Both the position numbers and the translations under genes were made by a program. Positions 1,706-56,279 of a stretch of DNA of 64,000 nt are shown here, piece by piece (within the stretch, counting starts at the first letter, position 1; the number at the start of each line of letters is the position of its first letter). The DNA is from Octopus vulgaris (taxonomy: Eukaryota): positions 128,650,001-128,714,000 of the forward strand of contig OX597814.1 of NCBI GenBank assembly GCA_951406725.2, written 5' to 3'. The notes under the pieces are model-generated. The model was not told the origin of the DNA. It was given only the letters and a program-made list of their open reading frames with translations, and searched no databases.

Positions 1706-2300
1706 TATAATACAGACAATGGGCTATATACCTATTGTAATTTAGTCATCTATAGTCTGATATGATATTTCAGCATAATATTCCTTCTTTGGATATTCTT
1801 AAATCGAGTCGCTGCTATAATCGGTTTTCCAACAGCTTTTCTTTTTTCTTTTTTTTCTTTTGGAAGTGTCTCAGCAGTGGTCTCATGATGCTCCTTCCGG
1901 AATTCCTCATGAGAAGTGCGTGAAGTTGGCCATGTCTCAATCTTGTCTGTGCTGGTACATCCATAGCACTGATTGAGACATGGCTGACCTCACATACTTC
2001 TCATGAGGAATTCCAAAAGGAGCATCATGAGACCACTGCTGAACCGCTTCAAAAAATTCAAAAAAAAAAAAGAAAAAAGAAAAGCCGGTGAAAAACCGAT
2101 TTTAGCAGTGACTCCATCTAAGAATATCTGAAGAAGGCATATTATTCCGAAATATCATATCAACTAAGGATGACTAAATTACAACAGGTATATAGCCCAT
2201 TGTCTGTATTATAGTGCATTGTTGTACCACTCAAAACTTTTTATTCTTTACAAACAATACACAATGCTTCAAGCGAACTACAATACTCTCCTATATAAAT
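1706..2300. mobile_element. Foldback element (arms 1706-1942 / 1971-2213) with hammerhead-like motif; probable non-autonomous Penelope-like element
   Basis: ~240-bp imperfect inverted arms read directly; inserted at the TA tract of a SINE; CTGAAGA...GAAA core in the right arm. Confidence 0.65.
2124..2160 (+). ncRNA. Minimal hammerhead ribozyme-like motif (weak stems)
   Basis: atat-CTGAAGA-a-ggcat(att)attcc-GAAA-ta-TC-atat; the opposite arm has ggaat/atgct, so the consensus stem II is ggaat/attcc. Confidence 0.5.
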
Positions 2301-2912
2301 ATAAAAATATCTATGTGTATGTGTGTCTTTGTGTTTGTGTTTCTCCCCCCACCATCTCACCCCTTGACAACCAGTGTTGGTATGTTTACGTCCCTATAAC
2401 TTAGCAGTCCAGCAAAGAGATTGATAGAATAAGTACCAGGCTTCTAAAATAAAAGTACTGGGGTTGATCCATTCAGTTAAATATTCTTCAAGGTGGTGCC
2501 CCAGCATGGCCGCAGTCTAATGACTGAAACAGGTGAAAGATAATAGATAAAAGATACAAGACAACCAAGTCAGCACTAATTATTAAAGAAGACACAGCCT
2601 GGGTCTGAAGTGGGTTTTAGAGACATGCTTTAACAAAAGCTAAGGGATACCTCACTCCCTGTGGTCTTCCAGCATACTGGATGCCAACCGAGAATTTCTG
2701 AGAGCCCTTGCTTTTGCCAGATAGTCGTTAAACCTCACCTAGGTTCATCTGTCTTTTTAAAAGGTCTTGTTTTTAGTCCTGCTGGGTTTCTAGCAACCCT
2801 TTATTGGATGGTCATTGACTTTCCAAATTCATCTGCTTTTTGACAAGACGTGTTCTTCACCCTACAGGGTATCCAAACTCACTTCACCAAAGAAGCTTCA
2901 TGTTGTTTCCAG

Positions 2913-3367
2913 TTTCTTATTTGGTTACTGGCCACAGGGGGCTACACACAGAGGGGACAAACAAGGACAGACAAACGGATTAAATTGATTATATCAACCC
3001 CAGTGCATAAGTGGTACTTATTTAATCGACCCCAGTGTATAACTGGTACTTATTTAATCGACCCTGAAAGGATGAAAGGCAAAGTTGACCTCGGCGGAAT
3101 TTGAACTTAGAATGTAGAGGCAGACGAAATACCTATTTCTTTATTACCCACAAGGGGCTAAACACAGAGAGGACAAACAAGGACAGACAAATGGATTAAG
3201 TGGATTATATCAACCCCAGTGCGTAACTGGTACTTATTTAATCGACTCCGAAAGGATGAAAGGCAAAGTCGACCTCGGTGGAATTTGAACTCGGAACGTA
3301 GCAGCAGACGAAATACTGCTAAGCATTTCGCCCGGCGTGCTAACGTTTCTGCCAGCTCACTGCCTTA
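2913..3367 (-). mobile_element. SINE family B (Nin/Deu-domain-like), head-to-tail dimer
   Basis: Minus-strand GAGTTCAAATTCC B box and GCCTTTCATCCTTTCGG(G)GTCGAT...AAGTACCAG domain; flanked by the direct repeat TGTTGTTTCCA. Confidence 0.85.
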
Positions 3368-3691
3368 CTTGTTGTTTCCATTTTAGCCATCACTGACCCT
3401 ACCATGCAATGGTAATCTGGCACTTCAACACAGCAGAAATGGATGTAAGAAGGGATAGAAGGCAACTCTAAGTCAAGTAAAAAAAAATAGCAATAAAAGT
3501 CAAAAGTCAATACACTGTACACAGAATAAACACACACACATGAAAAGTTGGAGCAATGTTCACTGGTACTTTATTTTATTAACACTGGAAGGGTGAAAGT
3601 TAAAGCTGCCCTCAGTGGCACTTGAACCCAAAATATAAAGGGCTCTAACTATTTTGTCTCATCTTCAAACAATTTTACCAATCCAATTTCT

Positions 3692-4070
3692 AGTGGCTGT
3701 GTGGTAAAGAGTTTGCTTCCCAAACACATTGTTCCAGGTTCAATCCCACTGCATGGCACCTTGGGCAAGTGTCCTCTACTATAGCTTGGGCTGACCAAAT
3801 CCACTCACATGTGTGTGTGTGTGTGTGTGTACCTGTGTGTGTATCTTTGAGTCTGTGTTTGCTGCCACCACTACTTCACAACCAATCTTGGTTTGTTTAC
3901 ATCCCTGTAACTTAATGGTTCAACAAAAGAGACTGATAGAATAAGTATCAGGCTTTAAAAAGAAAAAGTGCCAGGGTTGATTCATTCATCTAAAAATTCT
4001 TTAAGGGGATGCTCCAGCATGGCTGCAGTCTAGTGTTTGAAACAAATAAAAGATTAAAAATAAAAGATAT
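3692..4070 (+). mobile_element. SINE family A (older variant)
   Basis: Same head, core, (TG)n centre and GAAACAAATAAAAGA tail as other family A copies. Confidence 0.8.
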
Positions 4071-4347
4071 GCACAGGACCAGAAATTTGAGGGGAAATAG
4101 TTTATTGGTCATTTATTTTATTGAATAGAACAAGATTAATATGAAATCAGCTTCTGGCTAACTTTGGGAACAATATGAAATCTATTGATTTCAATTTACC
4201 TGCAGTTAACTTGTGATGTAGGTAGCTCGTAGACTTTGTATTGGATCTGTCTTTTGCAATAAAAAAAAGTTACAACCAAAGCAGAGCTGTGTTGGCTAAA
4301 ACAAACTACAAATACCCATGGATAAATGAATTAATAAATAAATATTC

Positions 4348-4782
4348 ATAGGTGCAGGAGTGGCTGTGTGGTAAGTAGCTTGCTTACCAACCACATGGTC
4401 TTGGGTTCAGTCCCACTGCATGGCACCCTGGGCAAATGTCTTCTACTATAGCCTTGGATCGACCAAAGTGAGTGGATTTGGTAGACGGAAACTGAAAGAA
4501 GCCTGTCATGTATATATATATATATATATGTATACATATGTATATGTTTGTGTGTCTGTATTTGTCTCCCATCACCATCACTTGACAACTGATGTTGGTG
4601 TGTTTACATCCCCGTAACTTAGCAGTTCGGCAAAAGAGACTGATAGAATAAATACTAGGCTTACAAAGAATAAGTTGATATGTTCAACTAAAGGTTCAAC
4701 TGAGGTTGACATGTTCAACTAAAGGTGGTGCTCCAGCATGGCCACAGTCAAATGACTTAAACAAATAAAAGAATAAAAGAAT
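4348..4782 (+). mobile_element. SINE family A, full length
   Basis: TAGGTGCAGGAGTGGCTGTGTGGTAAG head through to a (TAAAAGAA)n tail. Confidence 0.9.
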
Positions 4783-4869
4783 ATACATGTTCTGTATGCA
4801 TGCATGTGTCTATGTGTGTGTATGTATACATATGAGGAATTATGATAAATACAAGTTTATATCATTTGT

Positions 4870-5778
4870 GTGCATTGTCACATAAAAGCTCCCAACACTC
4901 TCTCTAAAGTGGTTGGCATTAAGAAGAGCTTCCATAGAAATCAACCTTTGAAGACTGGGCCTGCTGGAGACAAAGTGGCCGAGTTCCTTTTGAGCACTGG
5001 GCCTCATGGAGGCAAAGTGACTGAGTTCCTTTTGTGTGTTGGGCCTAACGGACGTAATGATGGAAACTTGAGAAGAAGACCCATCAAGTTGAGCAAAATC
5101 ACAGTTGTTGCAGATACCAGTGTCATGCAAATGACACCCATGCTGGTGGTACATAAAAGCAACCATATACTCTTGGAGTGGTTGGTATTAGGAAGGGCAT
5201 CCAGCTGTAGAAAACCATGACAAAACAGCCTGGAGTCTGGTGCAGTCTTCCAGCATGCCAGCCCTATCACACTGTGCAACTCATGCCAGCATGGACAATG
5301 GACATTAAATACCAAATCAGACTGAGTTTTGTTGCAGCTCCCCAGATTGCCAACTCTGGTCAAACTGTTCCACCCATGCTAGCATGGACAATGGATGTTA
5401 AATGATATATATATATATATAAAATCAAAGGATAGAATCATTAAAATTAATGAATTTTATCAGTGGCCAGCATATAAAAATAATTTTACCTAAAAAGTTA
5501 TATATCTATATATATATATATATGGCCTTCGTGCCGGTGGCACGTAAAAAGCATCAACTGATCGTGGACATTGCCAGCCTCACCTGGTACCATGCCGGTG
5601 GCATGTAAAGAGTACCCACTACACTCACGGAGTGGTTGGCGTTAGGAAGAACATCCAGCTGTAGAAACACTGCCAGATCAGACTGGGCCTGGTGCAATCT
5701 CCTGGCTTCCCAGACCCCAGTCGAACTGTCCAACCCATGCTAGCATGGAAAGCGGACGTTAAACGATGATGATGATGA

Positions 5779-5781
<3 letters not shown>
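4870..5781 (+). mobile_element. Cluster of RTE LINE 3'UTR remnants (family C)
   Basis: GGCGTTAGGAAGGGCATCCAGCTGTAGAA-type domain, CCCATGCTAGCATGGAAAGCGGACGTTAAACG end and (ATG)n tails. Confidence 0.8.
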
Positions 5782-5829
<48 letters not shown>

Positions 5830-5830
<1 letters not shown>

Positions 5831-6566
5831 GTAAATATAAGAGAGTAACCACTATGTGGTCGACTCTAGCACTAGAAATAGATCCGCTAGGTTTCAGCCA
5901 CGAAGAATTGTTTCCAATGAAAGTTAGCACGACTACTAGCGTAAACGCCAAGTCGACTACATAGTGGTTACTCTCTTATATTTGCGTATAGAATTTATTG
6001 TATTCCTGGTTTTTATGCACTAAGCCACTTGGTGTTAAATGGATGTACTATTAAATTAGTATCCAATTTTCTCACCCTTATTAGTTGATTGTAATTATAC
6101 TACATTTAATTTTTGATGTTGTATCTGTTTCCGTGAATTTTGGCGGGCTGTGGCGGGGGCACTTGAATTATAACAGCGAATGCAATCGACTGAACCGCAC
6201 GTGTGTTTATCGTTATGGTAAAATCTGGCGTGCGGTTGAGTAAATTGTGTTCTGGACGGGTTCGGCTGAGGAGCTACAGATATGTTATTAATAGCGAAAC
6301 AATTGTCCTGAACTAATCTGCATTTTTATTATTTTTATTTGCCCTGTTCGTTTACGCTAGTAGTCGTGCTAACTTTCATCGGAAACAATTCTTCGTGGCT
6401 GAAACCTAGCGGATCTATTTTTAGTGCTAGAGTCGACTACATAGTGGTTACTCTCTTATATTTACGTATAAAATTTATTGAATTCCTGGTTTTTATGCAC
6501 TAAGCCATGTGTTAAATGGATGTACTATTAAATTAGTATCCAATTTTCTCACCCTTATTAGTTGAT
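5830..6566 (+). mobile_element. Non-autonomous Penelope-like/retrozyme-like element: inverted 5' segment plus 480-bp unit with ~135-bp terminal direct repeat, inside (TA)n
   Basis: 5830-5947 is the reverse complement of 6349-6466; 5951-6089 repeats at 6431-6566; (TA)n on both flanks; contains a hammerhead. Confidence 0.8.
6260..6313 (+). ncRNA. Type I minimal hammerhead ribozyme
   Basis: Stem I gttcgg/ctgaac, core CTGAGGA, stem II gcta/tagc, GAAA, palindromic stem III acaattgt, GUC triplet (cleavage predicted after 6307). Confidence 0.85.
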
Positions 6567-6581
6567 ATATATATATATATC

Positions 6582-6880
6582 ATCATCATCATCATCATCA
6601 TCGTTTAACGTCCGTTTTCCGTGCTAGCATGGGTGGACGGTTCGACCGGGGTCTGGGAAGCCAGGAGGCTGCACTAGGCTCCAGTCTGATCTGGCAATGT
6701 TTCTACAGCTGGATGCCTTTCCTAACGCCAACCACTCCGTGAGTGTAGCGGGTGCTTTTTATGTGCCACCGGCACAGGTGCCAGGGGAGACTGGCAGCGG
6801 CCACGATCGGATGGTGCTTTTTACGTGCCACTGGCACAGAAGCCTCTCAAGGCGGCACTGGCATCAGCCACATTCGGATG
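6582..6880 (-). mobile_element. RTE 3'UTR remnant (family C)
   Basis: (CAT)n tail followed by the reverse complement of the family C terminal domain and tandem units. Confidence 0.85.
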
Positions 6881-6921
6881 ATAAGTGTATATATATATTT
6901 GTGTGTGTGTGTGTATAATTG

Positions 6922-6953
<32 letters not shown>

Positions 6954-6990
6954 TATATATATATGTAAGTATATATATATAAACGTATAT

Positions 6991-7027
<37 letters not shown>

Positions 7028-7293
7028 AGTGTGATGCCCACTAAATGGGCATACATTATGCTTTTAGTAGTCCCCTATGGTCTTACCACTAAGAAAAGAT
7101 TGTTCTCAAGAGAATTCAGCAAATGCCAGAATTTTTCACCCTTATTATTTTTAATTTAAATTTATATATATATACATATATATATGTAGATAGATAGAGA
7201 GATAGATATAAATTTCAAGCTGTATAACGACTTTGTTTAAACTTGTCCCTCACACCTTATCTTTTTCTTGTTGTTGCTCATTGCATCATGCAC

Positions 7294-7325
<32 letters not shown>

Positions 7326-7638
7326 ATATATATGCTTTACCCTTTATATATATTATATAAATGTGTGTGTGTGTGTGTGTGTGCGTAAGATGTCATACTG
7401 AATACAGCTCTTCAAATTAAATGGTTTTATTAATATTGTATTTCACTTCAGTTTGAAACCAGTTAGTTAGACAGTTTTTAATTAATAAATTAATAGATAA
7501 ATAAATTAATTGCCTTGTTTCAGTTGATTTTTGCAGCCTCTATCTTCCTAAGGAGCATTATTGTTTCATGCATACAAATACATAAATGTCTGTGCATAAG
7601 TTTGTGTATGTGATTGTGCATGTGTGTATATGCGTGTG

Positions 7639-7674
<36 letters not shown>

Positions 7675-7914
7675 CATGTGTGTATGTGTGTGTGTGTTTG
7701 TGTGTGTGTGTGCGTGCGTGCATGTGTTTTTGTGTGTGTGTGCATCTACCACCTGGTCATTTCAGCCCACATGGTTCTGCTAAGTGTCCGTGTTGGCTGG
7801 TATGTTCACTGTAACACACACACACATATACATATGCACATGCACACACATGCACATACACACGCACACATGCATACCATCATCATCATCTTCATCATCA
7901 CAACAGCAGCATTG

Positions 7915-8135
7915 TTGTTTTAAAGCACACTTTTCCATGCTCACATGAGCCAAACAGAATTTGTTGAGGAAAATTTTCTCTGAATGAGTGCTCTTCCTGT
8001 TGCTAACCCTCACCTGTTTCCAAGTAAAGTAATGTTTTTCAGTGGTAGCTTTGTTTTCACAGAAGATTGAAAATGAATAACACTGCCTATATAACAGTGA
8101 CTCTCATTTACAACTATCATGTGGTGTCAATACAG
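7915..8135 (-). mobile_element. Meta-domain-like SINE fragment (family D); second copy at 56330-56555 (+)
   Basis: Shared TTGGAAACAGGTGAGGGTT..ACAGGAAG(G/A)G motif and CATGGAAAA..TG tail. Confidence 0.6.
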
Positions 8136-8254
8136 AAGAGACAAACACATACAAATATACATTTGTACATACACATTGACACACATATGAAAACTTCCGC
8201 ACACACGCACTCACACACACACACTCACACACAAACACACACACACACACACAC

Positions 8255-8427
8255 AGTGTGGCTGTGGGGTAAAGCATTTGCTTCCCAACCACATGGTTCT
8301 GGGTTCAGTCCCACAATGTCGCATCTTGGGCAAATGTTTTCTACTGTATCCCCTAGCCAACCAAAGCCTTGTGAGTAGAATTGGATGGTGGAAACTGAGA
8401 GAAGCCCATCTATATATATATACAAAA

Positions 8428-8486
<59 letters not shown>

Positions 8487-8522
8487 CATACACATACATA
8501 TCAATCTATCTATCTATCTATA

Positions 8523-8569
<47 letters not shown>

Positions 8570-10696
8570 TCATCTACCTATCTACTGAAATAGAATAGAG
8601 GGAGACCTAGTTAAGAAATTAGAGGTTGGCACTTGTCATTGAGAAACTGGTCGACAAGGTGCAAACATGTGTCGTGCCAGGCAATAGTATCCATGACAAC
8701 ATTCATCTAATGCACTACATCATAGGGTAGTTAAGGAACCTGGCACAGGTGGAGCGCCGATCAATTTGGATCAATCAAAAGCTTTCGATAGGGTTGACTA
8801 TTTCTACTTGGAGGCTATCCTTAGAGCGACTGGTTTTGGTCCCATCTTCCAGAGTTGGATTGCTGCCTTATACAGCGGCATCCATTTGGAAGTTCGTGTA
8901 AATCGTCATATGTCAAGACCATTTAACATCATGCATTCAGTCTGTCAAGGGGTATTGCGTGAGAACTGGGATGCAGGAGGAGTATGTCTGCATACATAGA
9001 CGATGTCACCATGATAGTGTTGAGCCACTGGCATATCAATATCAACCTGGTCAGTGGGACACTAAAAGAATACAAAGTGGTAACGGGAGTAAAAATTAAA
9101 CGGGAAAAGTCAGTGGGCTTGCGACTTGGCACCTGGAGAAGCAAACCCATGCTGTCCAGCAGCATCTCCATTGTGAGATGCTAGACAGACCGACCGGCTA
9201 AATTGCTCAGGGTCTGGTTTGGTCTGGACCTCCAAACGGAGAAGAACTGGGATGAGATAACAAATAGGGTGACCATTCTCACCCAGCAATGAGGCGAGAG
9301 GAAGCTATCCCTAAAACATCAGGCGGAGCTGGCGAATGCGTGCATTGCATCCATAATCGATTACTGTCTGACTGTTGTGCCTTGTTCCGATCCTACCATC
9401 ACCAAACTGGAACGCATACTCTTCTGCTTTTTGTGGAAGGGAAGAGTCAGGCAATCCATTTGCTGTCAACACCCACTAAATGGAGGGCTGGGCATGCGCA
9501 GACATGCGCAGAGACTGTGACATCTCCAGTGATTCATAGATGACGGTGAACCGGTGTGGTTGCTCTTTGTGAGGCGTTCTTTCCCACAGCTTATCTCTTT
9601 GGGCGAACTGCAGTCATGAATCAAACAGAGACAAAGGCTAGGCGAATGGCACTGCGAGTGCCGCCTTGCTCTCAAGCAACTCTGCCATCCGGGACCAAAC
9701 TTGTGCGACTTCAATCCCACAAAGGCCTTCTATAGAGGATTAGTGGAGGAGAGGTGCGATGAAGTCCTCGGGGAGAATCTGGGCATCAACGAGAAACACC
9801 TGACTTGCCTGTTCAGGACAGCTTTCAAGCCAGGACCTATGAACAGTCATCAGAGATCACTGGCCTGGCAGTGCTGTTGGAAAACATTGCCAGTTCGGGA
9901 TAAGCTCTGCAGGCATTGTTCGAGATAAACCAGACCAACTTGCTTGAGATGTGGTCAGAACAACGAAACCATTCTGCACGCACTCGTGCAGTGTCCAACC
10001 ATTTTCGACTTGTGCGCTTATGCCAAATGGCTGCTGTCATGTGTGGGACGAATTTGGTTGTCAGCCAAGTCTATCATGAAAATTGCCCCACCGCCTTCAC
10101 TTAACTGGGAAGGCAAGGCAGTTTTCATCATACTGCTGACCATTAGGAAAGAATATGTGTGGACTCGAGTGAAAGGTTTAGAGACAAACACTTTCCTCTC
10201 TGGCCAATCATTCATCAACTTTTTCAAGTACCACTTGAAAAGGAAGGTGATAATAGAGAGGCAAGTTTTGTCTCATTAAAGATTCAATAAAAGGTGGGTG
10301 AACGTAGCAAAGATGTTTTGCATGAATGATGAAACCACTTTGAGCATTATCCTGTAAATCCAAAAGAGAGAGAGAGAGAGCACTTTGCTCTCATGTGTTT
10401 TTTCCTTCCCTGCCTGAGGTTACCGTTGTCATTTTCATAGGCTTTTCTTTCTACGGATAAACCTAATCTGTTTTTTTACATTTTTACTCTGTTCTGTGAT
10501 ACATGATTCCTTTGATCAGAATTTTTTTTGGTAAATGATCCCTTTTGATCAGAATTTTTTCCTCCTTTTTTTTCTTTCTTCCTCTTTTTTCTTCCTTTGA
10601 AAAGAAAAGCTCTACATTGTATTTTGTCCCCTCTACTTGAGGCCCTGTGTGGCTAATAAAGAAAGATATCTATCTATCTATCTACCTTTCTATTTA

Positions 10697-10749
<53 letters not shown>

Positions 10750-10955
10750 ATCTATCTATCTACCTTTCTATCTATATGTGTGTGTATATGTTTGTCTCCC
10801 ACTACTGCTTGACAACTGGTATCGGTTTGGGTAAATCCCCATAACTTAGAAGTTTGGCAAAAGAGACTGATAGAATAAGTACTAAGCTTAAATAAAAAAA
10901 AAAAGTATTGGGGTCGATTCGTTCAATTAAAAACCTTTCAAGAGGGTGCCCCAGC
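8255..10955 (+). mobile_element. SINE family A split by a Tx1 LINE (5' half 8255-8410, 3' half 10775-10955)
   Basis: Both halves match family A and flank the LINE and the (TCTA)n tracts. Confidence 0.75.
8620..10666 (+). pseudogene. 5'-truncated, frameshifted Tx1/L1-clade LINE (RT and C-terminal CCHC)
   Basis: Translated fragments PGNSIHDNIHL, LDQSKAFDRVD...GFG...WI..LYS, SAYIDD and CLRCGQNNETILHALVQCP; T-rich 3'UTR ending AATAAAGAAA. Confidence 0.85.
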
Positions 10956-11712
10956 CTGGGCTGGCAAGCCAGAAGACTGTACAAAGTTCCACTGCTTTGG
11001 CATGGGTTTTACAACTGGATGGCAACCATTTTACAGAGAGGACTGGGAGCTTTTTATGTAGCACCAGCAACAGTAATATGGATGTATACATGCATAGAAG
11101 CAATGCTTTTTATCAAAACTTTTGACTCAATTCAGATAAAACCACTCCAGATATTTGTTAGCGTATCCATGTAAATGGAGCTGGGACAGGCTAGTTTGTT
11201 GTGGCACTGAGTTGTATAGATTATAATGAACTACATATTATTGGTTTGACTTCATTATTATACTGTGTGTGTGTGTGTGTGCATGTATGTATGTATGTAT
11301 GTATGTATGTATGTACGCATTTATGTATGTATGTATGCATGTATGTATACACTCACACATACATAGCTGTAGATTTAATGTTGTTTGTGAAATTTTCAGA
11401 AGTAAAAGTGAAGTTGTAAACATCACATACCCAGGGTAGAGCAATCATAGACTAATCAAATCCATAGCAGATATTTCAAAGCTAGGTAGTTGATCTAAAT
11501 AGGCATTATGACAACCATACCAAAATTAAAGATGAGGATATAAAAACATCAAAAGTTACGTGAAAGCAAGACACATAAAAAATCTTGTTAGTTAGATAAC
11601 CATGTGCACAAGCATAGCTGTGTGGGTGAGATGTTTACTTACCAACCATGAGAACTTGAGTTCAGTCCCTGGGTGGCTTTGCTTTGAGTTGATTGTTGAG
11701 TTGTGAGTGAAA

Positions 11713-14274: not shown

Positions 14275-14322
<48 letters not shown>

Positions 14323-14591
14323 TGCTTGTTGTCTACACCACCTGTCTTTGTCTTTTGTTTTTTTTTTTGTGAATTCTGCAACAGATATATATATATATAT
14401 ATATATGTATATAAATTTATATAAATAAGGATAAGATCATTATTTAAATATTGAACTTATCAAGTGGCCAGCATAGGAATAAAAACCTTCAACGGTAATA
14501 ATTATTATTAAAGTTATAATTTAGGGTTTCTAAATTATAAATTGAAATAGCAGCCAAAACTTGACTCTAAAACCACATTAAAATTTTATAT

Positions 14592-14684
<93 letters not shown>

Positions 14685-38800: not shown

Positions 38801-38864
<64 letters not shown>

Positions 38865-38872
38865 TATATATA

Positions 38873-39418
38873 CAGGGTTATTCAAAGAGAATGAACCAAT
38901 TTCATTTCGCAATATTTTAATTGGAAAAAGCAATAGAAAACTCCAGCTAAGTCACAAGTATTTACTCACAATCAACTTTTATTTCCTGTCTTACAAGTGT
39001 TCAATGTGGCCACCACCTGCAGCACGGGCAATATCAATGTGATAAGTGAATTCTTCCCAGATGCGTATCAGCATATCACGATCCACTGAGTACTTCTTTG
39101 ACAGTCTGGTTGAATGCTTTATCAAAGTTTTTCCATTTCCCTTCTATGTCAATATCTTCTGGAATCACCTCAAGCAAAGCAAATTTATTCTTTAGTTACA
39201 TAATGAACTTGCTTTTGATATGCTGATACGTGTCTAGGAGGAATTCTCTTATAGCATTGATGCTGCCCGTGCTACAGGTAGTGGCCACATTGAACACTTA
39301 TAAGAGAGGAAATAAAAGTTGATTGTGAGTAAATACTTGTGACTTAGCTGGAGTTTTCTATTCCTTTTCCTTACTAAAATATTGTGTAATAAAATCAGTT
39401 CATTCTTTTTGAATAACC

Positions 39419-39421
<3 letters not shown>
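38873..39421. mobile_element. Tc1/mariner-derived MITE made of two transposon right ends (~205-bp arms)
   Basis: TA|CAGGGTTATTCAAA ... TTTGAATAACCCTG|TA; both arms encode a transposase C-terminus (DMLIRIWEEFTYHIDIARAAGGGHIEHL*). Confidence 0.85.
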
Positions 39422-39461
<40 letters not shown>

Positions 39462-46602: not shown

Positions 46603-46916
46603 ACATTGTAATATTTGAAACATCAAGAATTATTAACAGTAGACATCATAGGGTTAACAAATTCCCAACTGCATTTCCATAACCATCTTCCTCGTCATTT
46701 TTGCACCTAACATGGATGGAACTGGTCTACATTGCATATAGCTTCACATTTCAATTCTCCATCATCTTGTCTGCGAGACCCAATACTAGAAAACAAAGTG
46801 GAGGAAATAACTCTAAGTAGCTGTCAGTGACTAGTTAAGTATATATTTATGGCTATGCTATGCAGAGATTTCATTTATTTATTGCTTATTCAAATGACAT
46901 AGTTACTAAAGGCTAA

Positions 46917-47305
46917 TCTTTCTATATATAAAGCTGAAGTTGTCTGTGTATGGCAGGTTTGGTCGCCTTCAACTAACACTATCTCCTCTGAGACCCTGCA
47001 GTGCAAGTTGACCAAAATTGAAAGTATGATAGAAGGCTTGCTCTTCCTTCCGTAGAAGAAAAAATTCAAATCAGACCATGTTAACACCAAAAATTATTTA
47101 CACCAAAAAGGTGCTTTTTTTCTATGAAAATCCCTATTTTTTACGATTTATTGACTGCTGTGTCGCCATTTTTCAGCGTATTTCAACCAGCAAAATGTTC
47201 ACTTAAAGAGAATAACAAGCTCCATAATGCAAAATTTTTACTTTTCAAAAATTCCAATTCTAAAGGGTCGAAACAAATCCGAGCAACGTCGGGTGATACT
47301 GCTAG
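46917..47305 (+). mobile_element. Non-autonomous Helitron
   Basis: A|TCTTTCTATATATAAA start; the CCGAGCAACGTCGGG-TGATACTGCTAG end is shared with 11880-12262. Confidence 0.75.
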
Positions 47306-48130
47306 AATATATAAAAGTAATTTGAACAAACGTTTCTATAGTGCAATCATTTGTCCAAATAGAAAGTCCTTTACCCATAGCACAATCTGCACTTAAGCTT
47401 TAACTTAAAGCGCAATTTATCATTGTGTTATGCGGATTGGTAACAAAGTGAATATTATTTCTACCCATCAGACAAAAGCATGCAATGAATACAGAGATAT
47501 CTTTGTTATATAATAAGGTCAAATCAAATTTTTTATGAAACACATGACATTTGTTTAACACTTTTGATATTAACCTGCCTAAGACTGTCATTGGATCTCT
47601 AACACACACTCTCTATTTCAAAGTAGTCTAATTAAAGCCTATTCTTTGTTATTTTAAGAATTAACTGAAACAGTGGCAGTGTAGTTTAACAGAAATATGG
47701 TAACAAAAGAATGAAAGAATGAACTGGCAGTATACATATAGTAAATTTGTTACGAGCGAAAAACAAGTGAAATAAGCATAATTTGTGTCAAAGGTGAAGC
47801 AAAGATGACTGAGTTAACAGGGTCCCTATCAGACAACTTGTCTGAGTGGCTGACAATTTCTATCTAATTATCAGTGTTGTATCATGTCAGTGACTAAGAT
47901 AATTAGCACCAAATGGGCAAGAACCCAAATTTGGGTGACATAATTTCCCACTATAAATAATATAAATGGTGTAGGTTTGATATGTAGCATGTTAATTTGG
48001 GATATTGAGGTTCATTCAAGCAGCAGAAAATATAATTTGCAATGGAAACAATATCAACTCTATAAGATTTATCTCTCGTTTAAAAATACTCCATCATATA
48101 TCTTTGATCTAAACACTGATTCTTCATTTT

Positions 48131-48583
48131 CTTATTTCATTTTTGCCCACAAGGGGCTAAACATAGAAGGGACAAACAAGGACAGATAAAGGGATTACGT
48201 CAATTACATCGACCCCACTGCGTAACTGGTACTTAGTTTATCGATCCCGAAAGGATGAAACACAAAGTCAACCTTGGCGGAATTTGAACTCAGAGCGTAA
48301 TGGCAGATGAAGTACCGCTAAGCATTTCGCCCAGTGTGCTTACGTTTCTTATTTCTTTATTGCCCGCAAGGGGCTAAACATAGAGGGGACAAACAAGGAC
48401 AGACAAACGGATTAAGTCGATTACATCGACCCCAGTGTGTAACTGGCACTTATTTAATCAACCCCGAAAGGATGAAAGGCAAAGCTGACCTCAGCGGAAT
48501 TTGAACTCAGAACGTAATGGCAGACGAAATACCGCAAAGCATTTCACCTGGTGTGCTAACATTTCTGCTAGCTCACTGCCTTA
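48131..48583 (-). mobile_element. SINE family B head-to-tail dimer
   Basis: Two copies bracketed by the direct repeat CTGATTCTTCATTT. Confidence 0.85.
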
Positions 48584-48676
48584 ATTTTTCGCCTGATTCT
48601 TCATTTCTCTACATCTCTACAGTAGGCTAAAATATAAAAAGACTTTTACTTTTCCTTATGTGCATATACAAATATA

Positions 48677-49102
48677 TCATCATCATCATTTAACATCTGC
48701 CTTCCATGCTAGCATGGGTGGGACAGTTTCACAAGAGCTGGCCAGGCAGAAGCCTACACCAGACTTCTGTGACTGTTTTGGCAGGATTTTTATGGCTGGA
48801 TGCCTTTCCTAACACCGACCACTCAGCAGAGTGGACTTAGTGCATTTTACATGGCACAAACACAGGTGAGGTCAGTTTTGGCAAGGTTTTTACAGCTGGA
48901 TGCCCTTCTAAACACTAATCACTTTACAGTGTGGACTGGGTGCTTTAATGTAACAGGATCATCAAATACTTGCACGACCAAAAAGAAAAAAAAAATTCAG
49001 GAGAGGAGTGGGCATTGGAGACATCTTGTGTCAGATGGTGAAAGGTTATAGTGAGACAGAAACAGGTGTCTTGCTGTAAAGGAAGTACAAGGTTACCTAG
49101 CC

Positions 49103-49167
<65 letters not shown>

Positions 49168-51078
49168 TCAGGAATGAAGATAGAAACAGTTGTACTATGG
49201 CAAAGGAAATACATGGTTATCTAACCTGAGGGAAGTGCAGGAGAAGGAGCAAGATAATGGGAGACAGCAGGATAGAAATGGTGGCAAAATGCCAAGCATA
49301 GTCACAAGGGAAAGGGATCAGAATATAAATGGGATGATTGAGTAAAGGCAGAGAGAGATATAGATGGTGGCAAGTGCTAGGACATACCCTTGAGATTTGA
49401 ACAGCATAATATAAGTGGCACGATATTGCAAAGGAAGTGTGATTAAAGAGTCGGAAGGGATGAGGAGTGAGTGGCGAAAACTTGGGTATATATAGAGTTG
49501 GAGGTGGGGGTGGGTGCTATACAGAGGAACAGGGCTGTGAGGACAGGATTGGGAAGTGAGAATTAGGCATAGTGTACAAAGGAGGAAATGTGAGGAAGCA
49601 AAGAGATGTGGAAATGTAGATTGGTTTTTTGGGGTAGGGTGTGTGAAAAGTTTTCTTGCTATGTGTGAGTGGAACACACAGGTTGGGGGCTAGCAGATAG
49701 CAATAATACAATGAGACAGGGCATGTGGGTGGAACACACAGGTCGGGGGGGCTAGCAGAGAGCAATGACGCAGTGGCACAGGGCCAAGAGAACAGGAATG
49801 GAAAGTGGGAGATAAGCATAGTGCATGAAACGGAAATGTGAGGAAGAGAAGAGATATAGAGATGTAGTTTGGTTTGTTGTAGCAGGAGAGAAGTTTTCTT
49901 GTTAAGTGTGGGTGGAACACACAGTGCTTCTAGAACACAATTTCACTGACATGGGTGGGTCTTCTCTAGAACTTCATATCACCAGACATCTTGGTCCATT
50001 GTTATTTTCTCCATGAAACCAACATCTTAAAATTGGTCCTTACCTATTTCTTTACTACCCACAAGGGGCTACACAGAGAGGGGACAAACAAGGACAGATA
50101 AACGGATTAAGTCGATTATATCGACCCCAGTATGTAACTAGTACTTATTGACCCCGAAAGGATGAAAGGCAAAGTCGACCTTGGCGGAATTTGAACTCAG
50201 AATGTAGTGGCAGACGAAATACTGCTAAGCATTTCGCCCAGCGTGCTAACATTTCTGCCAGCTCGCCACCTTATTGGTCCTTACCACTTCATCCCACATC
50301 TTCCTGGGTCTCCCTCTTCCATGGGTACCATCCACTTTCAGTGATTGGCATGGCTTTATGTAGTTGTCCTCATTCATATGCATCACATGTCCAAACCAAC
50401 ATAGTCTTCTCTCTTGCATGCTACATTTGATTTCTCTTATGCCCAACTTTTCTCTCAATACATTTGCACTTTGCCATACATGTACACTGATGTTTCACAT
50501 CCAATGGAGCATACTATCATAATTTCTCCACAGTCTACACGTCTTCTGCATTCAGAACCCATGTCTCACTATCATGGAACAGCCTACCTTTCACTCCGAA
50601 AGAGGGTCCCATTGTTGCTAACAAAGATGATAGCTCTCTGAACTTCCTCCACCTAATTCTTACTATACCTTCAGAGCATCCTCCACCATTGTTAATTTGA
50701 CCACCTAGGTAACAGAAACTATCTACAACCTCAAGAGAGTCTCCTGAGCATTTGAGAGAATCTAAGTCTTGTGTGCTCTTAGTGCTTACTGTTCTTGCAC
50801 ATCTGCGACATACAAAGACAACATTATCTGTTAATCTACTTGTAATTCCACTCCATCTCTTATGTGTCCATAGCTTTTACTGGGTGCTGCAAATGGACTT
50901 TCTTCCAACTTCTTTCCTACATATTGAGCAGAGCCATTTACCTCACAGAAAGAGAGTTTTATCTTCTTTCTTACTAGCAACAACTTTGATCTTAGCTAGG
51001 TTAACTTTAAAGCCCTTTGATTCCAGATTTTGTTTCCATACCTGGAATTTCTTCTCCAATTCTGCTAAAGATTCTGCA
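48677..51078 (-). mobile_element. 5'-truncated RTE LINE with Cys/His insert and long 3'UTR
   Basis: AESLAELEKKFQVWKQNLESKGFKVNLAK, QERRLCWFGHV and GRGRPRKMWDEVV; the 3'UTR ends in the family C-type terminus and (ATG)n. Confidence 0.75.
50045..50272 (-). mobile_element. SINE family B inserted in the RTE, 13-bp TSD
   Basis: ATTGGTCCTTACC at 50032-50044 and 50273-50285. Confidence 0.9.
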
Positions 51079-51112
51079 CTATATATATATATATATATAA
51101 GAGTGTATATGC

Positions 51113-51147
<35 letters not shown>

Positions 51148-51214
51148 AGTGTATATGCAGTTATATATATATATATATATATATATATAACTTCCTCACA
51201 CACATATGTAAAGC

Positions 51215-51383
51215 TGGTGACATGCCATGCTTGAGGGGACCTATTGAGTCAAGTACATCATCTACATCAAAATCAGATCAAATCACAATCAAAGGGAAAT
51301 TGTAGTTGTGGCTGATGCCAGCACCGCTTGTCTGGCTCCTCGTGCCAGTGGCACATAAAAAGCACCATCCAAAGGTATATATA

Positions 51384-51422
<39 letters not shown>

Positions 51423-51755
51423 TCATCATCATCGTTTAACGTCCGCTTTCCATGCTGGCATGGGTTGGATGGTTTGACTGAAGGCTGGCAATCCAGAAGG
51501 CTGGCAATCCAGAAGGCTGCACCAGTCTCCAATTTGATCTGGCAGAGTTTCTACAGCTGGATGCCCTTCCTAGCGCCAACCACTCTGAGAGTGTAGTTGG
51601 TGCTTTTACATGCCACCAGCACAAGGGCCAGTCCAGCGGCACTGGCAATGACCATGCTCGAATGGTGCTTTTTACGCATGCCACCTGCACAGGAGCCAGT
51701 CAGCAGCCCTGGTAACGATCACACTGAAATGGTGCTTTTTGCTCAAATGGTGCTT
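51215..51755. mobile_element. Two opposed RTE 3'UTR remnants (51215-51372 +, 51420-51755 -) around (TA)n
   Basis: Family C sequence in both orientations. Confidence 0.75.
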
Positions 51756-52462
51756 AGGTTTCTTTCAGTCTCTACCGACCAAATTCATTCGCTAGGCTTT
51801 AGTCATCCCATGGCTATAGTAGTAGACACTTGTCCCAGTGAGAAAGAATTGAAACCATGTGGCTTTGAAGCAAACTTCTTAACTACACAACTATGTCTGC
51901 ACCTATTCTTATATAGAAATGATTTGTACTTGTTTTGCAATTTACATAATTTGAGAATCATGTGTTGAAGCAATGGCAGAATCACATTAACTATTTAAAA
52001 CCCATTTATGTCTACTATATTCACATTTGTGATAATATCATATATAATATCATAATATCATACAAAGTGTTGATAATTATCACACACCTATGACCTGGTC
52101 ATTGATATAATTTCACCACACCACAATTGTTACATTAGGGAGAACTGTTCTCACAATACAAGACCATAAATGTCTCACAATAATATAACAATGAGTTACA
52201 TATGTTTTAAATGGCTATCATGAGTTTCTGTAACATATACCACATATATTGGTTTCAAATTTTGGCACATGGTCAACAGTTTCAGAGAAGGGAGTAAGCT
52301 GATTACATCAATCCCCATTGTTCAACTGGTGCTTATTTTATCAACCCCGAAAGGATAAAAGACATAGGTGACCCCAGCAGAATTTGAACTCACAATGGAT
52401 GAAATACTGCTAAGTATTTTGCCCGGCGTGCTAATGATTCTGCCAGCTTTGTCATGTACCAC

Positions 52463-55294
52463 TTATTATTATTATTATTATTACTTTTAGTTTCTTCTTT
52501 CAAATTTGCTTCCATTTCTTGCCGAGTGTCTTCCCGACTCCTAGGGCAAAGAAACTCATAGTATACATTGGTAGGCCATTAAACCAAACTCAATAGTTCG
52601 TTCATTTTTTTTTTTTAAGTTAAATTAAAATACATGAGCAGCAACAGTTCTCACATCGACAATGCTCTTCTCAATACGTGTGATGTACCAGTTAAGACAA
52701 TCTTTTGCACTTCTTGCAGGGATGGTAAGCCAGGGATCATTCTCATATAATTTTTGGTTCCCTTCTTGATCATTCCTAGTGCTCCTACGATCACTGGTAT
52801 TGTGACCGCCTTGAGATGCCACATTTTCTCAATTTCAATGAGTAGGTCTTTATATTTTCTGAGCTTGTCAAACTCTTTTGCTGAGATATTATGATCACAG
52901 GGGATGCTCATGTCGATCAATAAGCAAACTTTATTGTTTTGGTCTTTCACAACAATATCTGGTTTATTGGCCTTGATGGTTCGGTCTGTATGTACTGGAA
53001 AGTCCCACAGAATGGTTACATTTTCTCCTTCAGTTACAGCCTCAGGGTGGTGATTATACCACTTGTCGGCAGTTTTGATATTGTAATGCCGACTTATTAG
53101 CCAGTGTAGATATTGGCCAACTCTGTCATGTCTTAATTTATACTCCACTGGTGCTAAGACTTTACATCCAGAGATTAGGTGGTCCACTGTTTCAATCATG
53201 TCGTTGCAGAATCGGCATTTTGGGTCTGCTCCATTTTTCATCACATTGGCCTGGTAGTTCCGGGTTAATAGGCTTTGATCTTGAGCAGCCAGGATGAAAC
53301 CTTTGCTCTCTGCTTTTAGCCCTGAGCTCCGTAGCCACTGATGGGTTTGCTTCTGGTCAACATCAGCTTGTTTGCTGCGGGTCACATATTTGCCGTGCAG
53401 AGGTTTCTCCTCCCACCTATCAGCCAATTGCTCGTGCGCTTTTTTCGTTGCCATCATTTTCACCTTCTTTGCAACAATAGTTGCCGTACTTCCCTCGGGT
53501 TGTTCAGTTTGGGTATCCTGCACGAGATCAATAGCAAATTTTTTGCTTTCCTTTATGATAAAATGAAGCTTCTTTCATCTCTCATGATTTTCCACGAGCT
53601 TTAGCATCCATTCATTCGATATTTCGAGATATTTGGCCAGTCCAATTGTGGTTGTTTTGTAAGCTAGTTCAAATTGGATCAGGCCTCGACCTCCTTGGGC
53701 TCTGGGAAGGTAAAGGCGATCTACGTCTGCCTTTGGGTGGTGCATCCTATTACAACTCAGCAGCTTGCGTATTTTCCTATCTATATTCTTTACTTCACTC
53801 ATATTCCAGTTCAACACATTGTAGCTATAAGTAACAACTGGAACTGCTAAGGAATTTATAGCTAACACCTTGTTACGTGCATTTAGTTCAGATTTCAGGA
53901 CTGCACGAACTCTCCTATAACATTCCTTCCTGATCTTCTCTTTCATGCTTGCATGCTGAATACCAGAGCCTTCATTTATCCCTAAATATTTGTATGTTTG
54001 TTCTTGCTCAAGCTCTCTTATGACTGTGTCAACATCTAACACGACTGAATTTGTGGTCTTCACATTCCCTTTCTGGAAAGTGGCCTTGGCACACTTCTCA
54101 AGTCCAAACTCCATCCCGATGTCATCGCTGAATGCTTTCACGGTGCGCAATAGGCCTTCAAGTTCATTATTGTCTTTACCATAAAGTTTTAAGTCATCCA
54201 TATAAAATAGATGGCTTATTTTTTTATTGGCAATTTTATACCCATACCCTGTTCTGTTTAATTCACTTGTAAGGGGTATTAGGGCTATGCAGAATATTAA
54301 AGGTGAAAGTGAGTCACCTTGAAAAATTCCACAGTTGATGTTTATATTTTCTGAGGCAAGTACTCCATTAGAGTGGTATAATTGGAGATTCGTATTCCAC
54401 AACGACATATTGTGCTTCAGGAAGTTTGAAATCACAGGGGAAATTTTGAAGATGTCCAGCGATCTCAAGATCCATGGATGCGGTATACTGTCGAAGGCCT
54501 TTTTATAGTCAATCCATGCGGTGCTGAGATTTCTGCACTTGTTGTGACAGTTCTCAAGGATCATATGATTGATTAGCAGTTGATCTTTGCATCCGTAAGA
54601 GCCTCGGCGGCACCCTTTTTGTTCAATGGGGAAAATATCGTTCTTCTCCATGAATGCATATGTTTTCTCCGCCAGGATAGATGTTAGGATTTTATACGTG
54701 GTGGATAGACAGGTTATAGGCCGATAGTTTTTTGGAAGGTTGGTTTCGTTATTCTTTGGGAGTAGGTAAGTAATGCTACTTGCTAACCATTCAGGTGTTT
54801 TCTTTGGGTCTCTCATAATTCCATTGAGCAGCTGAACTAGCTTACCATGTGCGCATGGGAGCGATGCGAGCCAGAAATTCGGCACCCTATCTTTACCGGG
54901 GGATTTCCAATTATGGGCCTTCATGAGTGCCTTTCTTAGGTCTGCTATTGTGATGTCTTCCCATGCTTGTTGTTGTAAATTTTGGTAGGATCCTTCAGTT
55001 TGTATAATCCAGTCTGCATTTATGTTGTACGTCTTCTTGTCACTCCAAATCCTTTTCCAAAAGTTTTGAACTTCTTCCATGGGAGGGGGGTCTTTAATGG
55101 TTACTTTCTCCTTCCCTATTTCTCTGTAGAATTTTTTGGCATTGGATGTGAACAGCTTATTTTGCTTGTAAAACTTGTTTCTCTTCTCAAATCTTCGTAT
55201 TCTTTGGGCTTTTGCTTGGACTTTTTGTTTCAGCGTTTCTTTTATTGATATCAGTTCTTCTCTTGGTGAGGATCCAAATTTTCTCTTCATCTTT
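52463..55294 (-). mobile_element. R4/Dong-clade non-LTR retrotransposon (RT + CCHC + RLE); 5' end lost in the assembly gap
   Basis: Long ORF, ~170-bp 3'UTR and (TAA)7 at the 3' junction. Confidence 0.9.
52651..55294 (-). pseudogene. RT/RLE-endonuclease polyprotein, ~880 codons with a single in-frame TGA at 53575-53577
   Basis: NYRPITCL, DYKKAFDS, GIFQGDSLSPL, YMDDL, YKYLG, RLYLPRAQGGRGL; CRFC-X8-H-X4-C; RHD; KPDIVV...LIDMSIP...KY. The two listed ORFs are in the same frame (offset 924). Confidence 0.9.
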
Positions 55295-55394
55295 NNNNNN
55301 NNNNNNNNNNNNNNNNNNNNNNNNNNNNNNNNNNNNNNNNNNNNNNNNNNNNNNNNNNNNNNNNNNNNNNNNNNNNNNNNNNNNNNNNNNNNNN
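55295..55394. other. Assembly gap (100 N placeholder)
   Basis: Run of N. Confidence 1.
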
Positions 55395-55657
55395 GAGTAG
55401 GGTCATATGCTAAGAATTGGTCATCATTTTCAACAGTATGGGGCAAAATCTTATCAGGGCTTTATAAGCTTTTACAACAGAAGTTAATATAATTCTTGAA
55501 AGGATGCAGACAAATTACTAATAAGTTTAAGAAGTTATATCAAATATATATATTGATAGAAATGGTAAGACAACAAAAGAATGAAAGAGACCTTGATATT
55601 ATGTAAATAGAGGAATTTATCTGTAAATGTTATTTGTGACAGTTATTCGATAGCCAT

Positions 55658-55720
55658 GATACAACTCCGAGTTTCGGATGCCGGGGTGGAAACCTGCACC
55701 AGCATCTCTTCAGTTATTGG
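55658..55720 (-). ncRNA. Degenerate hammerhead ribozyme motif in a TA-flanked insert (55552-55772)
   Basis: Minus strand: CTGAAGA-gatgctgg...ccggcatc-c-GAAA-ctcggag-TT; 8-bp stem II, stem III actc/gagt, weak stem I. Confidence 0.55.
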
Positions 55721-55770
55721 GCCATCAAAAAATGCTATGATTTTTCATAATTGTCACATATTACATTTAC

Positions 55771-55816
<46 letters not shown>

Positions 55817-55819
<3 letters not shown>

Positions 55820-56279
55820 TTCAAATGAATATGGTACTTAAGTTGAGGCACCAGAATTTACTACAATATTATCCATGCAATTTCAAAGTAAGGTGATTAA
55901 AATTATAATAAACAACAAGGATATCCAGAGGTAATGTAGTACGATCGTTTCATGCAACTCCATTTAATTGAACATTACAATCATTACATCAATTTAAAAT
56001 GTAGAGCAATCTTTAGCTCACAAAGCCATAGACTTTAATTAAATTAGAACAGATGGACACATTAGTATAATTATACCTTAACTTCTTGGAAATTTTAGGT
56101 ATAATTATACTAATGTGTCCATCTGTTCAAATTTAATTAAGTTTTATGTTTTTGTGCAGCTGAAGAGTGCTCTACATTTTAAATTGATGTAATGATTGCA
56201 TTGTTCAATTAAATGGAGCTGCATGAAACGATTGTACTGCATTACCTCAGGATATCCTTGTTGCTTATTTTGATTTTAT
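55817..56279. mobile_element. Foldback element (arms ~55898-56080 / 56095-56279) in (TA)n, with a hammerhead motif in each arm
   Basis: ~180-bp inverted arms read directly; (TA)n on both sides. Confidence 0.7.
56154..56242 (+). ncRNA. Type I hammerhead ribozyme with long stem II loop
   Basis: Stem I gtgcag/ctgcat, CTGAAGA, stem II gtgc/gcat, GAAA, stem III acgattgt (perfect palindrome acgatcgt in the other arm), GUA triplet. Confidence 0.7.

What the first reader, a model, noticed from the sequence alone, without database searches (positions are those of the whole stretch)
1706..56279. A recurrent class: unrelated TA-targeted foldback elements that each carry a hammerhead
Seen: four sequence-unrelated inserts within 64 kb (1706-2300, 5830-6566, 55552-55772, 55817-56279). 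All lie in TA tracts, have no ORF, and contain CTGA(A/G)GA-stem-GAAA-palindrome-UH. Three are partly or wholly inverted duplications. Short TA-flanked relics share end motifs: AATTTT(C)TCACCCTTATTA at 6065, 6542 and 7130; related ends at 5420-5500 and 14415-14585. Inference: a diverse, high-copy population of ribozyme-bearing non-autonomous Penelope-like elements. Foldback copies would bury the ribozyme in long dsRNA on read-through, silencing cleavage and creating substrates for ADAR editing, which is extensive in coleoids. Hammerheads in PLEs are known. This density and foldback architecture here may be undescribed, but I cannot check the literature.
Basis: partly seen in the sequence, partly recalled or inferred. 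Interest (0 to 1): 0.72.

Follow-up and report, generated by a model that had tools for sequence, protein, structure and literature searches.

The report
Folded-back Penelope retrotransposon ends with hammerheads
The four inserts are the cut-short, partly mirror-duplicated tail ends of four abundant Penelope-type jumping-gene families sitting in TA repeats, each with a hammerhead motif predicted to cut its own RNA; this layout is already described, and the hairpins are likely insertion scars, some of which may be edited by ADAR when transcribed.

Summary
All four inserts are 3' ends of repeat families (about 1,400-2,500 search candidates each) with a type-I minimal hammerhead and a palindromic stem III. 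The motif beats shuffles, and its stems covary between families B and B2. A is the end of a coding RT + GIY-YIG Penelope-like element (PLE); C and D end Hydra-clade PLEs; only B is a closed, ORF-less ~500-nt unit. The foldback is the known inverted 5'-truncated PLE copy; 37 of 43 outward-facing pairs carry the 'tail' on one arm only. Folding buries the ribozyme in A and D, not in B or C, and the arms decay independently. Hammerhead density here is ordinary for this genome. An octopus Hydra element with a hammerhead and a (TA)n target is already published, and this scan noted the same thing on other DNA at least seven times. Open leads: a young, intact sister family of C carries a U4C core, and contigs from one of five probable-RNA studies show an A>G/T>C excess on it (no matched DNA).

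The parts
1706..2291 (.). Insert A: head-to-head 3' ends of a coding RT + GIY-YIG PLE (long arm 1971-2291 +, short inverted arm 1945-1706 -), splitting a SINE at its TA tract
2124..2160 (+). Minimal type-I hammerhead of A: CUGAAGA core at 2128, extra A before stem II, 4-nt palindrome, predicted cut after 2156; the copy on the other arm has a broken core
5826..6566 (.). Insert B: non-autonomous ~500-nt closed unit (6070-6566 +) preceded by a partial tandem 3' end (5951-6089 +) and a short inverted arm (5947-5826 -) that does not cover the hammerhead
6259..6314 (+). Hammerhead of B: CUGAGGA core at 6266, 7-bp stem I, 8-nt palindrome, predicted cut after 6307; internal deletion in the stem II hairpin relative to the family
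55553..55772 (-). Insert C: 5'-truncated pLTR of a Hydra-clade PLE, with a 26-28-nt inverted short arm at 55747-55772
55658..55718 (-). Hammerhead of C: core 55713-55707; the stem I pair beside the cut site is broken in this copy
55817..56279 (.). Insert D: head-to-head 3' ends of a Hydra-type PLE with a ~2.7-kb AT-rich 3' UTR (long arm on -, short arm 56076-56278 +)
56154..56242 (+). Hammerhead of D: CUGAAGA core at 56160, ~58-nt stem II region, 8-nt palindrome, predicted cut after 56236; the other arm has a broken core
7031..7160 (.). Relic of family F (B-like end motif): inverted short arm joined to the last ~30 nt of the long arm; no hammerhead here, but present upstream in 4 of 25 loci
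14412..14590 (-). Relic of family E (B-like end): 3' end without its hammerhead; the scan hit within 700 nt upstream in 7 of 25 loci
5417..5500 (-). Relic of family G, end similar to E; no hammerhead at a consistent place upstream in 20 loci

Best explanation
The four inserts are 5'-truncated copies of the hammerhead-bearing 3' ends (pseudo-LTRs) of four Penelope-like retrotransposon families, and their hairpins likely arose once, at insertion, when the element's enzyme copied its RNA onto both strands of a cut TA repeat. Shown here: family membership, coding parents for A, C and D, a closed ORF-less unit for B, TA-terminated 3' ends, and two fixed 3' end points per family with one on each arm. 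Inferred from in vitro work on a lizard PLE (PMC11167929): the GIY-YIG domain cuts both strands of AT-rich DNA and the RT starts at two internal sites, giving a long (tailed) and a short cDNA that stop early and join head to head. B would borrow these enzymes from an unidentified partner. The hammerhead is inherited cargo of the pLTR. It is predicted to cut only as a dimer through its palindromic stem III or with protein help, so single decayed copies such as these are probably inactive. Read-through of A or D would fold into ~200-240-bp dsRNA that ADAR could edit as a by-product.
For: Upstream of the A end lies an RT + GIY-YIG ORF (Pfam RVT_1 E 5.5e-13, GIY-YIG E 0.0084 below cut-off); 26 of 30 endonuclease loci carry the A pLTR. 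C ends follow Hydra-type RT/EN pieces, and a sister family with an 80.5% identical pLTR has intact 717-aa ORFs in tandem and head-to-head arrays. The D 3' UTR directly follows a Hydra-type EN C-terminus in L190 and is matched in 11 of 30 EN loci, about 7 of them starting at the stop codon. 5' extensions form a truncation ladder. An upstream inverted arm is seen in A 10, B 21, C 19 (up to 4 may be an internal repeat), D 9 and B2 17 of 30 copies. One long plus one short end occurs in 37 of 43 outward-facing pairs (my count, family C left out); tails are A ~43, B 99, B2 97, C and young Hydra 62, D 85 nt. Arms are no more alike to each other than to the family majority (D 89.7% vs 94.1/95.6%; A 85.7% vs 90.8/87.7%). 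Hammerhead pairs hold in 96.9% of cells, with two-sided changes at 7 of 22 pairs across B and B2. In 600 kb of evenly spaced genome samples: 11 canonical hits at 9 insertions, against 0-1 in each of 10 shuffles.
Against: No parent was found for B, B2, E, F or G. No RT was examined for D, only its EN end. No tree was built, so clades rest on motifs. The covariation comes from two related families, so it records few independent events; 159 of 500 shuffles reach the same number of changed pairs. Family samples are the 30 best-scoring of 1,400-2,500 candidates and favour long copies. Only 9 of 30 A copies have (TA)4 within 40 nt of the end. Tails here (43-99 nt) are longer than the 30-40 bp published. 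No cleavage or insertion assay was possible.
Confidence: 0.9

Rival explanations
1. The foldbacks are a functional class of their own, kept because dsRNA silences the ribozyme on read-through and supplies ADAR or small-RNA substrates.
For: Foldbacks are common (4 of 9 canonical insertions in the sample have an inverted copy over the hammerhead). Folding buries the core in A and D (mean pairing outside the motif 1.0 and 0.96). Contigs of study P3 on the young sister family show A>G+T>C against G>A+C>T places of 117:23 and 142:29, versus 50:33 in a probable DNA run (Fisher p about 2e-4).
Against: B and C are not buried (0.17 and 0.0). The arms decay independently. Arm lengths vary from copy to copy. 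Lone minimal hammerheads did not cleave in PMC4209133. The excess is absent or not significant in four other studies (X1 5:3, X5 10:12, X13 8:6, X14 128:65, p 0.34). No exon was found in the window, and editing would be a by-product rather than proof of function.
Confidence: 0.06
2. The inserts are self-propagating non-autonomous hairpin elements (MITE-like or retrozyme-like) that move as whole units.
For: B and B2 are closed ~500-nt units in partial tandem without an ORF (12 and 17 of 30 loci), much like non-LTR retrozymes (PMC7229834; bioRxiv 10.64898/2026.07.22.740005).
Against: A, C and D run into coding sequence in longer copies. Inversion points vary and the two ends are unequal. A true TIR element in the window (38833-39461) has symmetric ends and no hammerhead. 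This fits the unit of B only, not the hairpins.
Confidence: 0.03
3. The hammerhead motifs are chance matches in AT-rich palindromic DNA.
For: Rfam gives no hammerhead match. A has only a 4-bp stem I and a 4-nt palindrome, and the relaxed scan also returns one unrelated site.
Against: Shuffle controls; intact motif at a fixed place in 15-20 of 30 copies of five families; compensatory changes; a published octopus Hydra hammerhead begins with the same core and first stem II letters as family C.
Confidence: 0.01

Closest known systems
Hydra clade of C-terminal EN+ Penelope-like elements, including Hydra-1_Obim (Craig et al. 2021, PMC8557442)
   Same: RWK, DKT, CxC-x5-C linker, CxxC and CxH around the EN end, no CCHH, hammerhead in the 3' end, (TA)n target. 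File S2 lists an octopus Hydra hammerhead whose core and first stem II letters match family C.
   Different: C and D are other families. D has a ~2.7-kb 3' UTR and a ~58-nt stem II region; tails are 62-85 nt; the young sister family of C has a U4C core.
[quoted passage not shown]
   Same: Type I, palindromic positions 15.2-16.2, extra nucleotide before stem II (A), mostly single truncated copies, pairs 100-700 bp apart on opposite strands; the U3-A8 core variant is also seen in the genome sample.
   Different: B, C and D have 8-9-nt palindromes and long stems II; C has its extra nucleotide on the 3' side of stem II.
PAc, Poseidon PLE of the green anole (Frangieh et al. 2024, PMC11167929)
   Same: Cuts and extends both strands of AT-rich DNA; two RT start sites define the tail; its hammerhead needs protein and is dispensable in vitro.
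   Different: Different clade. The paper does not describe one-long-one-short foldbacks; the link to the arms here is my inference.
Non-LTR retrozymes (PMC7229834; bioRxiv 10.64898/2026.07.22.740005)
   Same: Short ORF-less hammerhead units in tandem, related to PLE pLTRs; fits B, B2 and F.
   Different: B is ~500 nt (about 300 nt typical), mostly 1-2 units with PLE-type inversion and tail; circular RNA not tested.
Hyper-edited repeats: lizard Penelope and palindromic frog Harbinger (Porath et al. 2017, PMC5625713)
   Same: Penelope and self-folding repeats are known ADAR substrates; octopus has a very high dsRNA potential and hyper-editing rate.
   Different: Octopus was left out of the repeat-level analysis in that paper; no family is named there.

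Membership tests
Penelope-like elements (EN+) | One ORF with RT and C-terminal GIY-YIG endonuclease | tested here: met
   A. C: pieces and the intact 717-aa sister ORF (no Pfam hit; recognised by motifs and by eye against PMC8557442).
Penelope-like elements (EN+) | Same ORF test for family D | tested here: inconclusive
   EN C-terminus linked to the D UTR; RT not examined.
Penelope-like elements (EN+) | Same ORF test for family B | tested here: not met
   Closed ~500-nt unit with no ORF in 30 + 30 loci; filed as a non-autonomous derivative.
Penelope-like elements (EN+) | 5' truncation, partial tandems (pLTR) and an inverted 5'-truncated copy | tested here: met
Penelope-like elements (EN+) | Tail present at one end only | tested here: met
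   37 of 43 pairs; tail 43-99 nt against 30-40 bp published
Penelope-like elements (EN+) | Hammerhead within the pLTR | tested here: met
Hydra clade | RWK and DKT motifs, CxC-x5-C linker, no CCHH, CxxC and CxH near the EN end | tested here: met
   All present in the 717-aa ORF of L228; CxxC and CxH in C and D; features from section 11 of PMC8557442
Hydra clade | Insertion into (TA)n | tested here: met
   C 28 of 30, D 21 of 30
Hydra clade | Generally under 3 kb | tested here: inconclusive
   Young family 2.59 kb; D has ~2.7 kb of 3' UTR alone
Hydra clade | Placement in the RT phylogeny | not tested
Nematis/Neptune clades (family A) | CX2-5CxxC linker upstream of GIY-YIG | tested here: not met
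   A has C-x4-C-x7-C, one cysteine short; its short linker resembles the Nematis and PNL2_SM rows by eye. Clade left open.
Canonical EN+ PLE (family A) | CCHH motif in the endonuclease | tested here: met
   CxxC before YVG and two downstream histidines
Type I minimal hammerhead | CUGANGA...GAAA...UH core with stems I and II | tested here: met
   Intact in A 16, B 20, B2 15, C 18, D 19 of 30 copies
Type I minimal hammerhead | Palindromic stem III and compensatory changes | tested here: met
   (two related families only)
Type I minimal hammerhead | Self-cleavage at the UH site | not testable with these tools
   Only contigs were served; they cannot show RNA ends
Non-LTR retrozymes (family B) | Short ORF-less hammerhead unit in head-to-tail repeats | tested here: inconclusive
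   Partial tandems in 12 and 17 of 30 loci, unit ~500 nt, no long arrays seen
Non-LTR retrozymes (family B) | Abundant unit-length circular RNA | not testable with these tools
   no raw RNA reads available
MITE / DNA transposon | Symmetric terminal inverted repeats and fixed internal structure | tested here: not met
   Ends unequal and inversion points variable

The most novel reading that the evidence does not exclude
A still-active Hydra-clade PLE in this genome inserts as head-to-head arrays, spreads with a crippled U4C hammerhead, and is A-to-I edited on both strands. Two-strand priming by PLEs would then be a major, constantly renewed source of the long dsRNA behind octopus hyper-editing, on the order of 10^4 hairpins, with a separate group of ~500-nt ORF-less passengers riding on an unknown partner.
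Probability: 0.25. Interest if true: 0.6.

Novelty: new member of a known kind. Interest (0 to 1): 0.28.

Why it matters
As a class this is ordinary: PLE 3' ends with hammerheads, inverted copies and TA targets are published, including for an octopus. What remains useful is a test system. The intact, nearly clonal 717-aa Hydra family has two mapped end points 62 nt apart and a natural U4C core. It could show whether both arms of an inversion are primed from two RNA sites and whether ribozyme cleavage matters for spread, both open questions in PMC8557442 and PMC11167929. If the A>G/T>C excess holds with matched DNA, it would name a repeat source for octopus hyper-editing, which PMC5625713 left unassigned.

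Tried and rejected
Rfam scan: no hammerhead family among the rows shown. Search for a coding parent of B: none in 30 B loci, 30 B2 loci or 70 relic loci; the Hydra EN upstream in L348 belongs to another insertion, with an R4-like fragment between. Reverse-strand ORF for D: none. Host exons: 93 of 97 non-repeat frames scanned (4 inside the R4-like element dropped), one weak hit below cut-off, so intronic status is unknown. Sequencing runs: no RNA holder listed; 14 holders were only guessed to be RNA and all were contigs, so cleavage ends, strand and expression level could not be read. Both read-laying runs went to the young sister family, none to the window's copies. One stretch (L123) was fetched on the wrong side and not used. 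The 2017 paper on dimeric PLE hammerhead variants is not held; I know it from recall only and rest nothing on it. MITE and chance readings were rejected (see rivals). Seven paper searches found no paper on editing of hammerhead-bearing PLE foldbacks in octopus; subscription papers and preprint supplements were not visible.
Full report
Setting. The window lies at G000:C1:128650001-128714000 in a 2.8-Gb genome. It is likely an octopus: a named protein hit to family A is from Octopus bimaculoides at 78% identity over 27% of the query. About 60% of the window matches repeats in the other loci held. No host exon was found in 93 frames scanned.

The observation. A strict type-I hammerhead scan finds B (6266 +) and D (56160 +) against 0.01 sites per shuffle in 100 shuffles; a relaxed, unshuffled setting adds A (2128 +) and one unrelated site. 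C (core 55713-55707, minus strand) fails because one stem I pair is broken in this copy. Rfam shows no hammerhead among 150 of 175 rows. The four families share no nucleotide similarity. A, B and D have long inverted arms, and C a 26-28-nt one.

Families. DNA searches gave 1,805 (A), 1,394 (B), 2,251 (C) and 2,528 (D) candidates; 40 were scored and 30 loci kept for each. These samples favour long, close copies. All four majority lines have a CUGAAGA core, a palindromic stem III and a 3' end in TA. The motif is intact in A 16, B 20, C 18 and D 19 of 30 copies. B has a ~70% identical sibling, B2 (1,556 candidates). Across 42 B and B2 copies (31 distinct; 45 had the full motif and 3 were left out of the alignment), 96.9% of cells pair against 28-43% for slid partners, and 7 of 22 pairs change on both sides. 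Because only two related families are compared, this records few independent events.

Parents. Shared sequence upstream forms a truncation ladder. A runs into an RT with a GIY-YIG domain, and 26 of 30 endonuclease loci carry the A end. Its linker is C-x4-C-x7-C, Nematis-like by eye but one cysteine short of the defining motif, so the clade is open. C follows a GT-rich UTR and Hydra-type RT and EN pieces. A search with one piece gave 8,736 candidates, many with long open frames. These belong to a young family with a 717-aa ORF bearing RWK, DKT, CxC-x5-C, CxxC and CxH, a pLTR 80.5% identical to C, and copies 99.7-99.9% alike in tandem and head-to-head arrays. D ends a ~2.7-kb AT-rich UTR that follows a Hydra-type EN C-terminus; 11 of 30 EN loci match that UTR. 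B and B2 are closed ~500-nt units whose 3' end joins their own start; no ORF was found.

Relics. The pieces at 14412-14590, 7031-7160 and 5417-5500 are ends of families E, F and G, which share a terminal motif with B. The scan hit upstream in 7 of 25 E loci and 4 of 25 F loci; G showed no consistent hit in 20 loci.

Foldbacks. An upstream inverted arm occurs in A 10, B 21, C 19, D 9 and B2 17 of 30 copies, and it spans the hammerhead in 7, 7, 15, 7 and 7. Each family has two fixed 3' end points. In 37 of 43 outward-facing, TA-terminated pairs one arm is long and the other short (my count; overlapping loci merged within a family; C left out because an internal repeat blurs its ends). Folding buries the core in A and D but not in B or C. 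The arms of A and D are no closer to each other than to the family majority, which argues against upkeep of the hairpin. A symmetric TIR element at 38833-39461 has no hammerhead.

Density. Sixty evenly spaced 10-kb stretches gave 11 canonical hits at 9 insertions (0-1 in each of 10 shuffles), 3 U4C hits (0 in shuffles) and 11 hits to the U3 pattern (0-2 in shuffles). The same scan gives 2 hits in the window, which is ordinary. Scaled up this is roughly 4 x 10^4 insertions, with wide error. (TA)5 lay within 450 nt downstream of 6 of 11 canonical hits against 25% of random places; 4 of the 9 insertions had an inverted copy over the motif.

Mechanism. PMC11167929 (abstract and main text read) shows a lizard PLE cutting and extending both strands of AT-rich DNA from two internal RNA sites, which define the tail; its hammerhead needed protein and was dispensable in vitro. 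I infer that each foldback is two such cDNAs, one from each site, cut short and joined head to head. PMC4209133 (parts 1-2 of 4 read) found no cleavage by a single minimal hammerhead and low cleavage by dimers, so these lone, decayed copies are probably inactive whether folded or not.

Editing lead. No run on record as RNA holds the young family; only contigs were served. Seven runs were laid on it. Places with A>G or T>C against G>A or C>T, at 4% share: X9 117:23, X10 142:29 (same study), X14 128:65, and X20 50:33 (probably DNA, judged by its size). At 10% share: X9 47:8, X5 10:12, X13 8:6, X1 5:3. Against X20, p is about 2e-4 for X9 and X10 and 0.34 for X14. Base composition alone would give about 1.8:1. 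Assembly copies are balanced by substitution count (85:88 and 376:468). Of 22 places checked, 8 show a letter absent from 47-57 assembly copies, 4 a rare one and 10 a common variant. So one of five studies hints at editing on both strands, without matched DNA, and not on the window's own copies.

U4C. The young family reads CCGAAGA in 22 of 23 pLTR hits, from about nine partly overlapping places; 8 of 30 B2 copies also carry U4C. PMC3088659 (passages) notes that U4C considerably lowers activity in vitro yet is tolerated in a viroid.

What is known. PMC8557442 (passages, section 11 and supplement hits) describes the inverted 5'-truncated copy, the one-sided tail and the (TA)n bias, and lists Hydra-1_Obim with its hammerhead. 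PMC4209133 reports paired hammerheads on opposite strands. PMC7229834 (passages) and bioRxiv 10.64898/2026.07.22.740005 (abstract and section 14; supplements not seen) cover ORF-less hammerhead units related to pLTRs. PMC5625713 (passages) names a lizard Penelope as heavily edited and leaves octopus repeats unassigned. PMC13282606 (passages) lists recently active Penelope-like families in an octopus without mentioning hammerheads. Seven earlier notes of this scan reached the same reading on other DNA; a second look-up on editing returned none.

Verdict. Real, and new members of a known kind. 'Non-autonomous' holds for B only, the architecture is published, and the dsRNA is best read as a by-product of insertion. 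Interest 0.28, for the active U4C family, the fixed tail asymmetry and the unconfirmed editing signal.

Noticed in passing
window 52651-55461 (-): 5'-truncated non-LTR retrotransposon with RT (Pfam RVT_1 E 5.7e-30) and a zinc-knuckle/REL-type end, R4/Dong-like by recalled motifs, with one stop and an assembly gap; it lies next to C and D in the same TA-rich cluster.
   Followed up: partly
window 38833-39461: Symmetric ~245-bp TIR foldback in a TA tract, Tc1/mariner-MITE-like by recalled end motif, with no hammerhead; served as a negative control.
   Followed up: partly
window 5527-5800 and 6565-6842: Two inverted copies of a SINE-like repeat (88% alike) flank insert B through their TA tracts, making a larger potential hairpin around it.
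   Followed up: no
L228:1420-4000 (G000:C17:75340500-75346500), L226, L227, L230, L231: Young Hydra-clade PLE with an intact 717-aa ORF, copies 99.7-99.9% identical, in multi-kb head-to-head arrays, with a U4C hammerhead core; runs labelled as three other organisms hold about 85% of its words.
   Followed up: partly
random sample L284, L289, L291, L298, L310: Hammerhead families with the U3-A8 core, several as opposite-strand pairs.
   Followed up: no
family D loci L189-L195: The ~2.7-kb AT-rich 3' UTR contains ~70% identical internal duplications with a period near 850 bp.
   Followed up: no
window 63043-63393: Another degenerate foldback (72% over ~350 nt), not examined.
   Followed up: no
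L004:985-1942: A head-to-head pair made of two different families (B and B2), which suggests a template switch or a nested insertion.
   Followed up: partly
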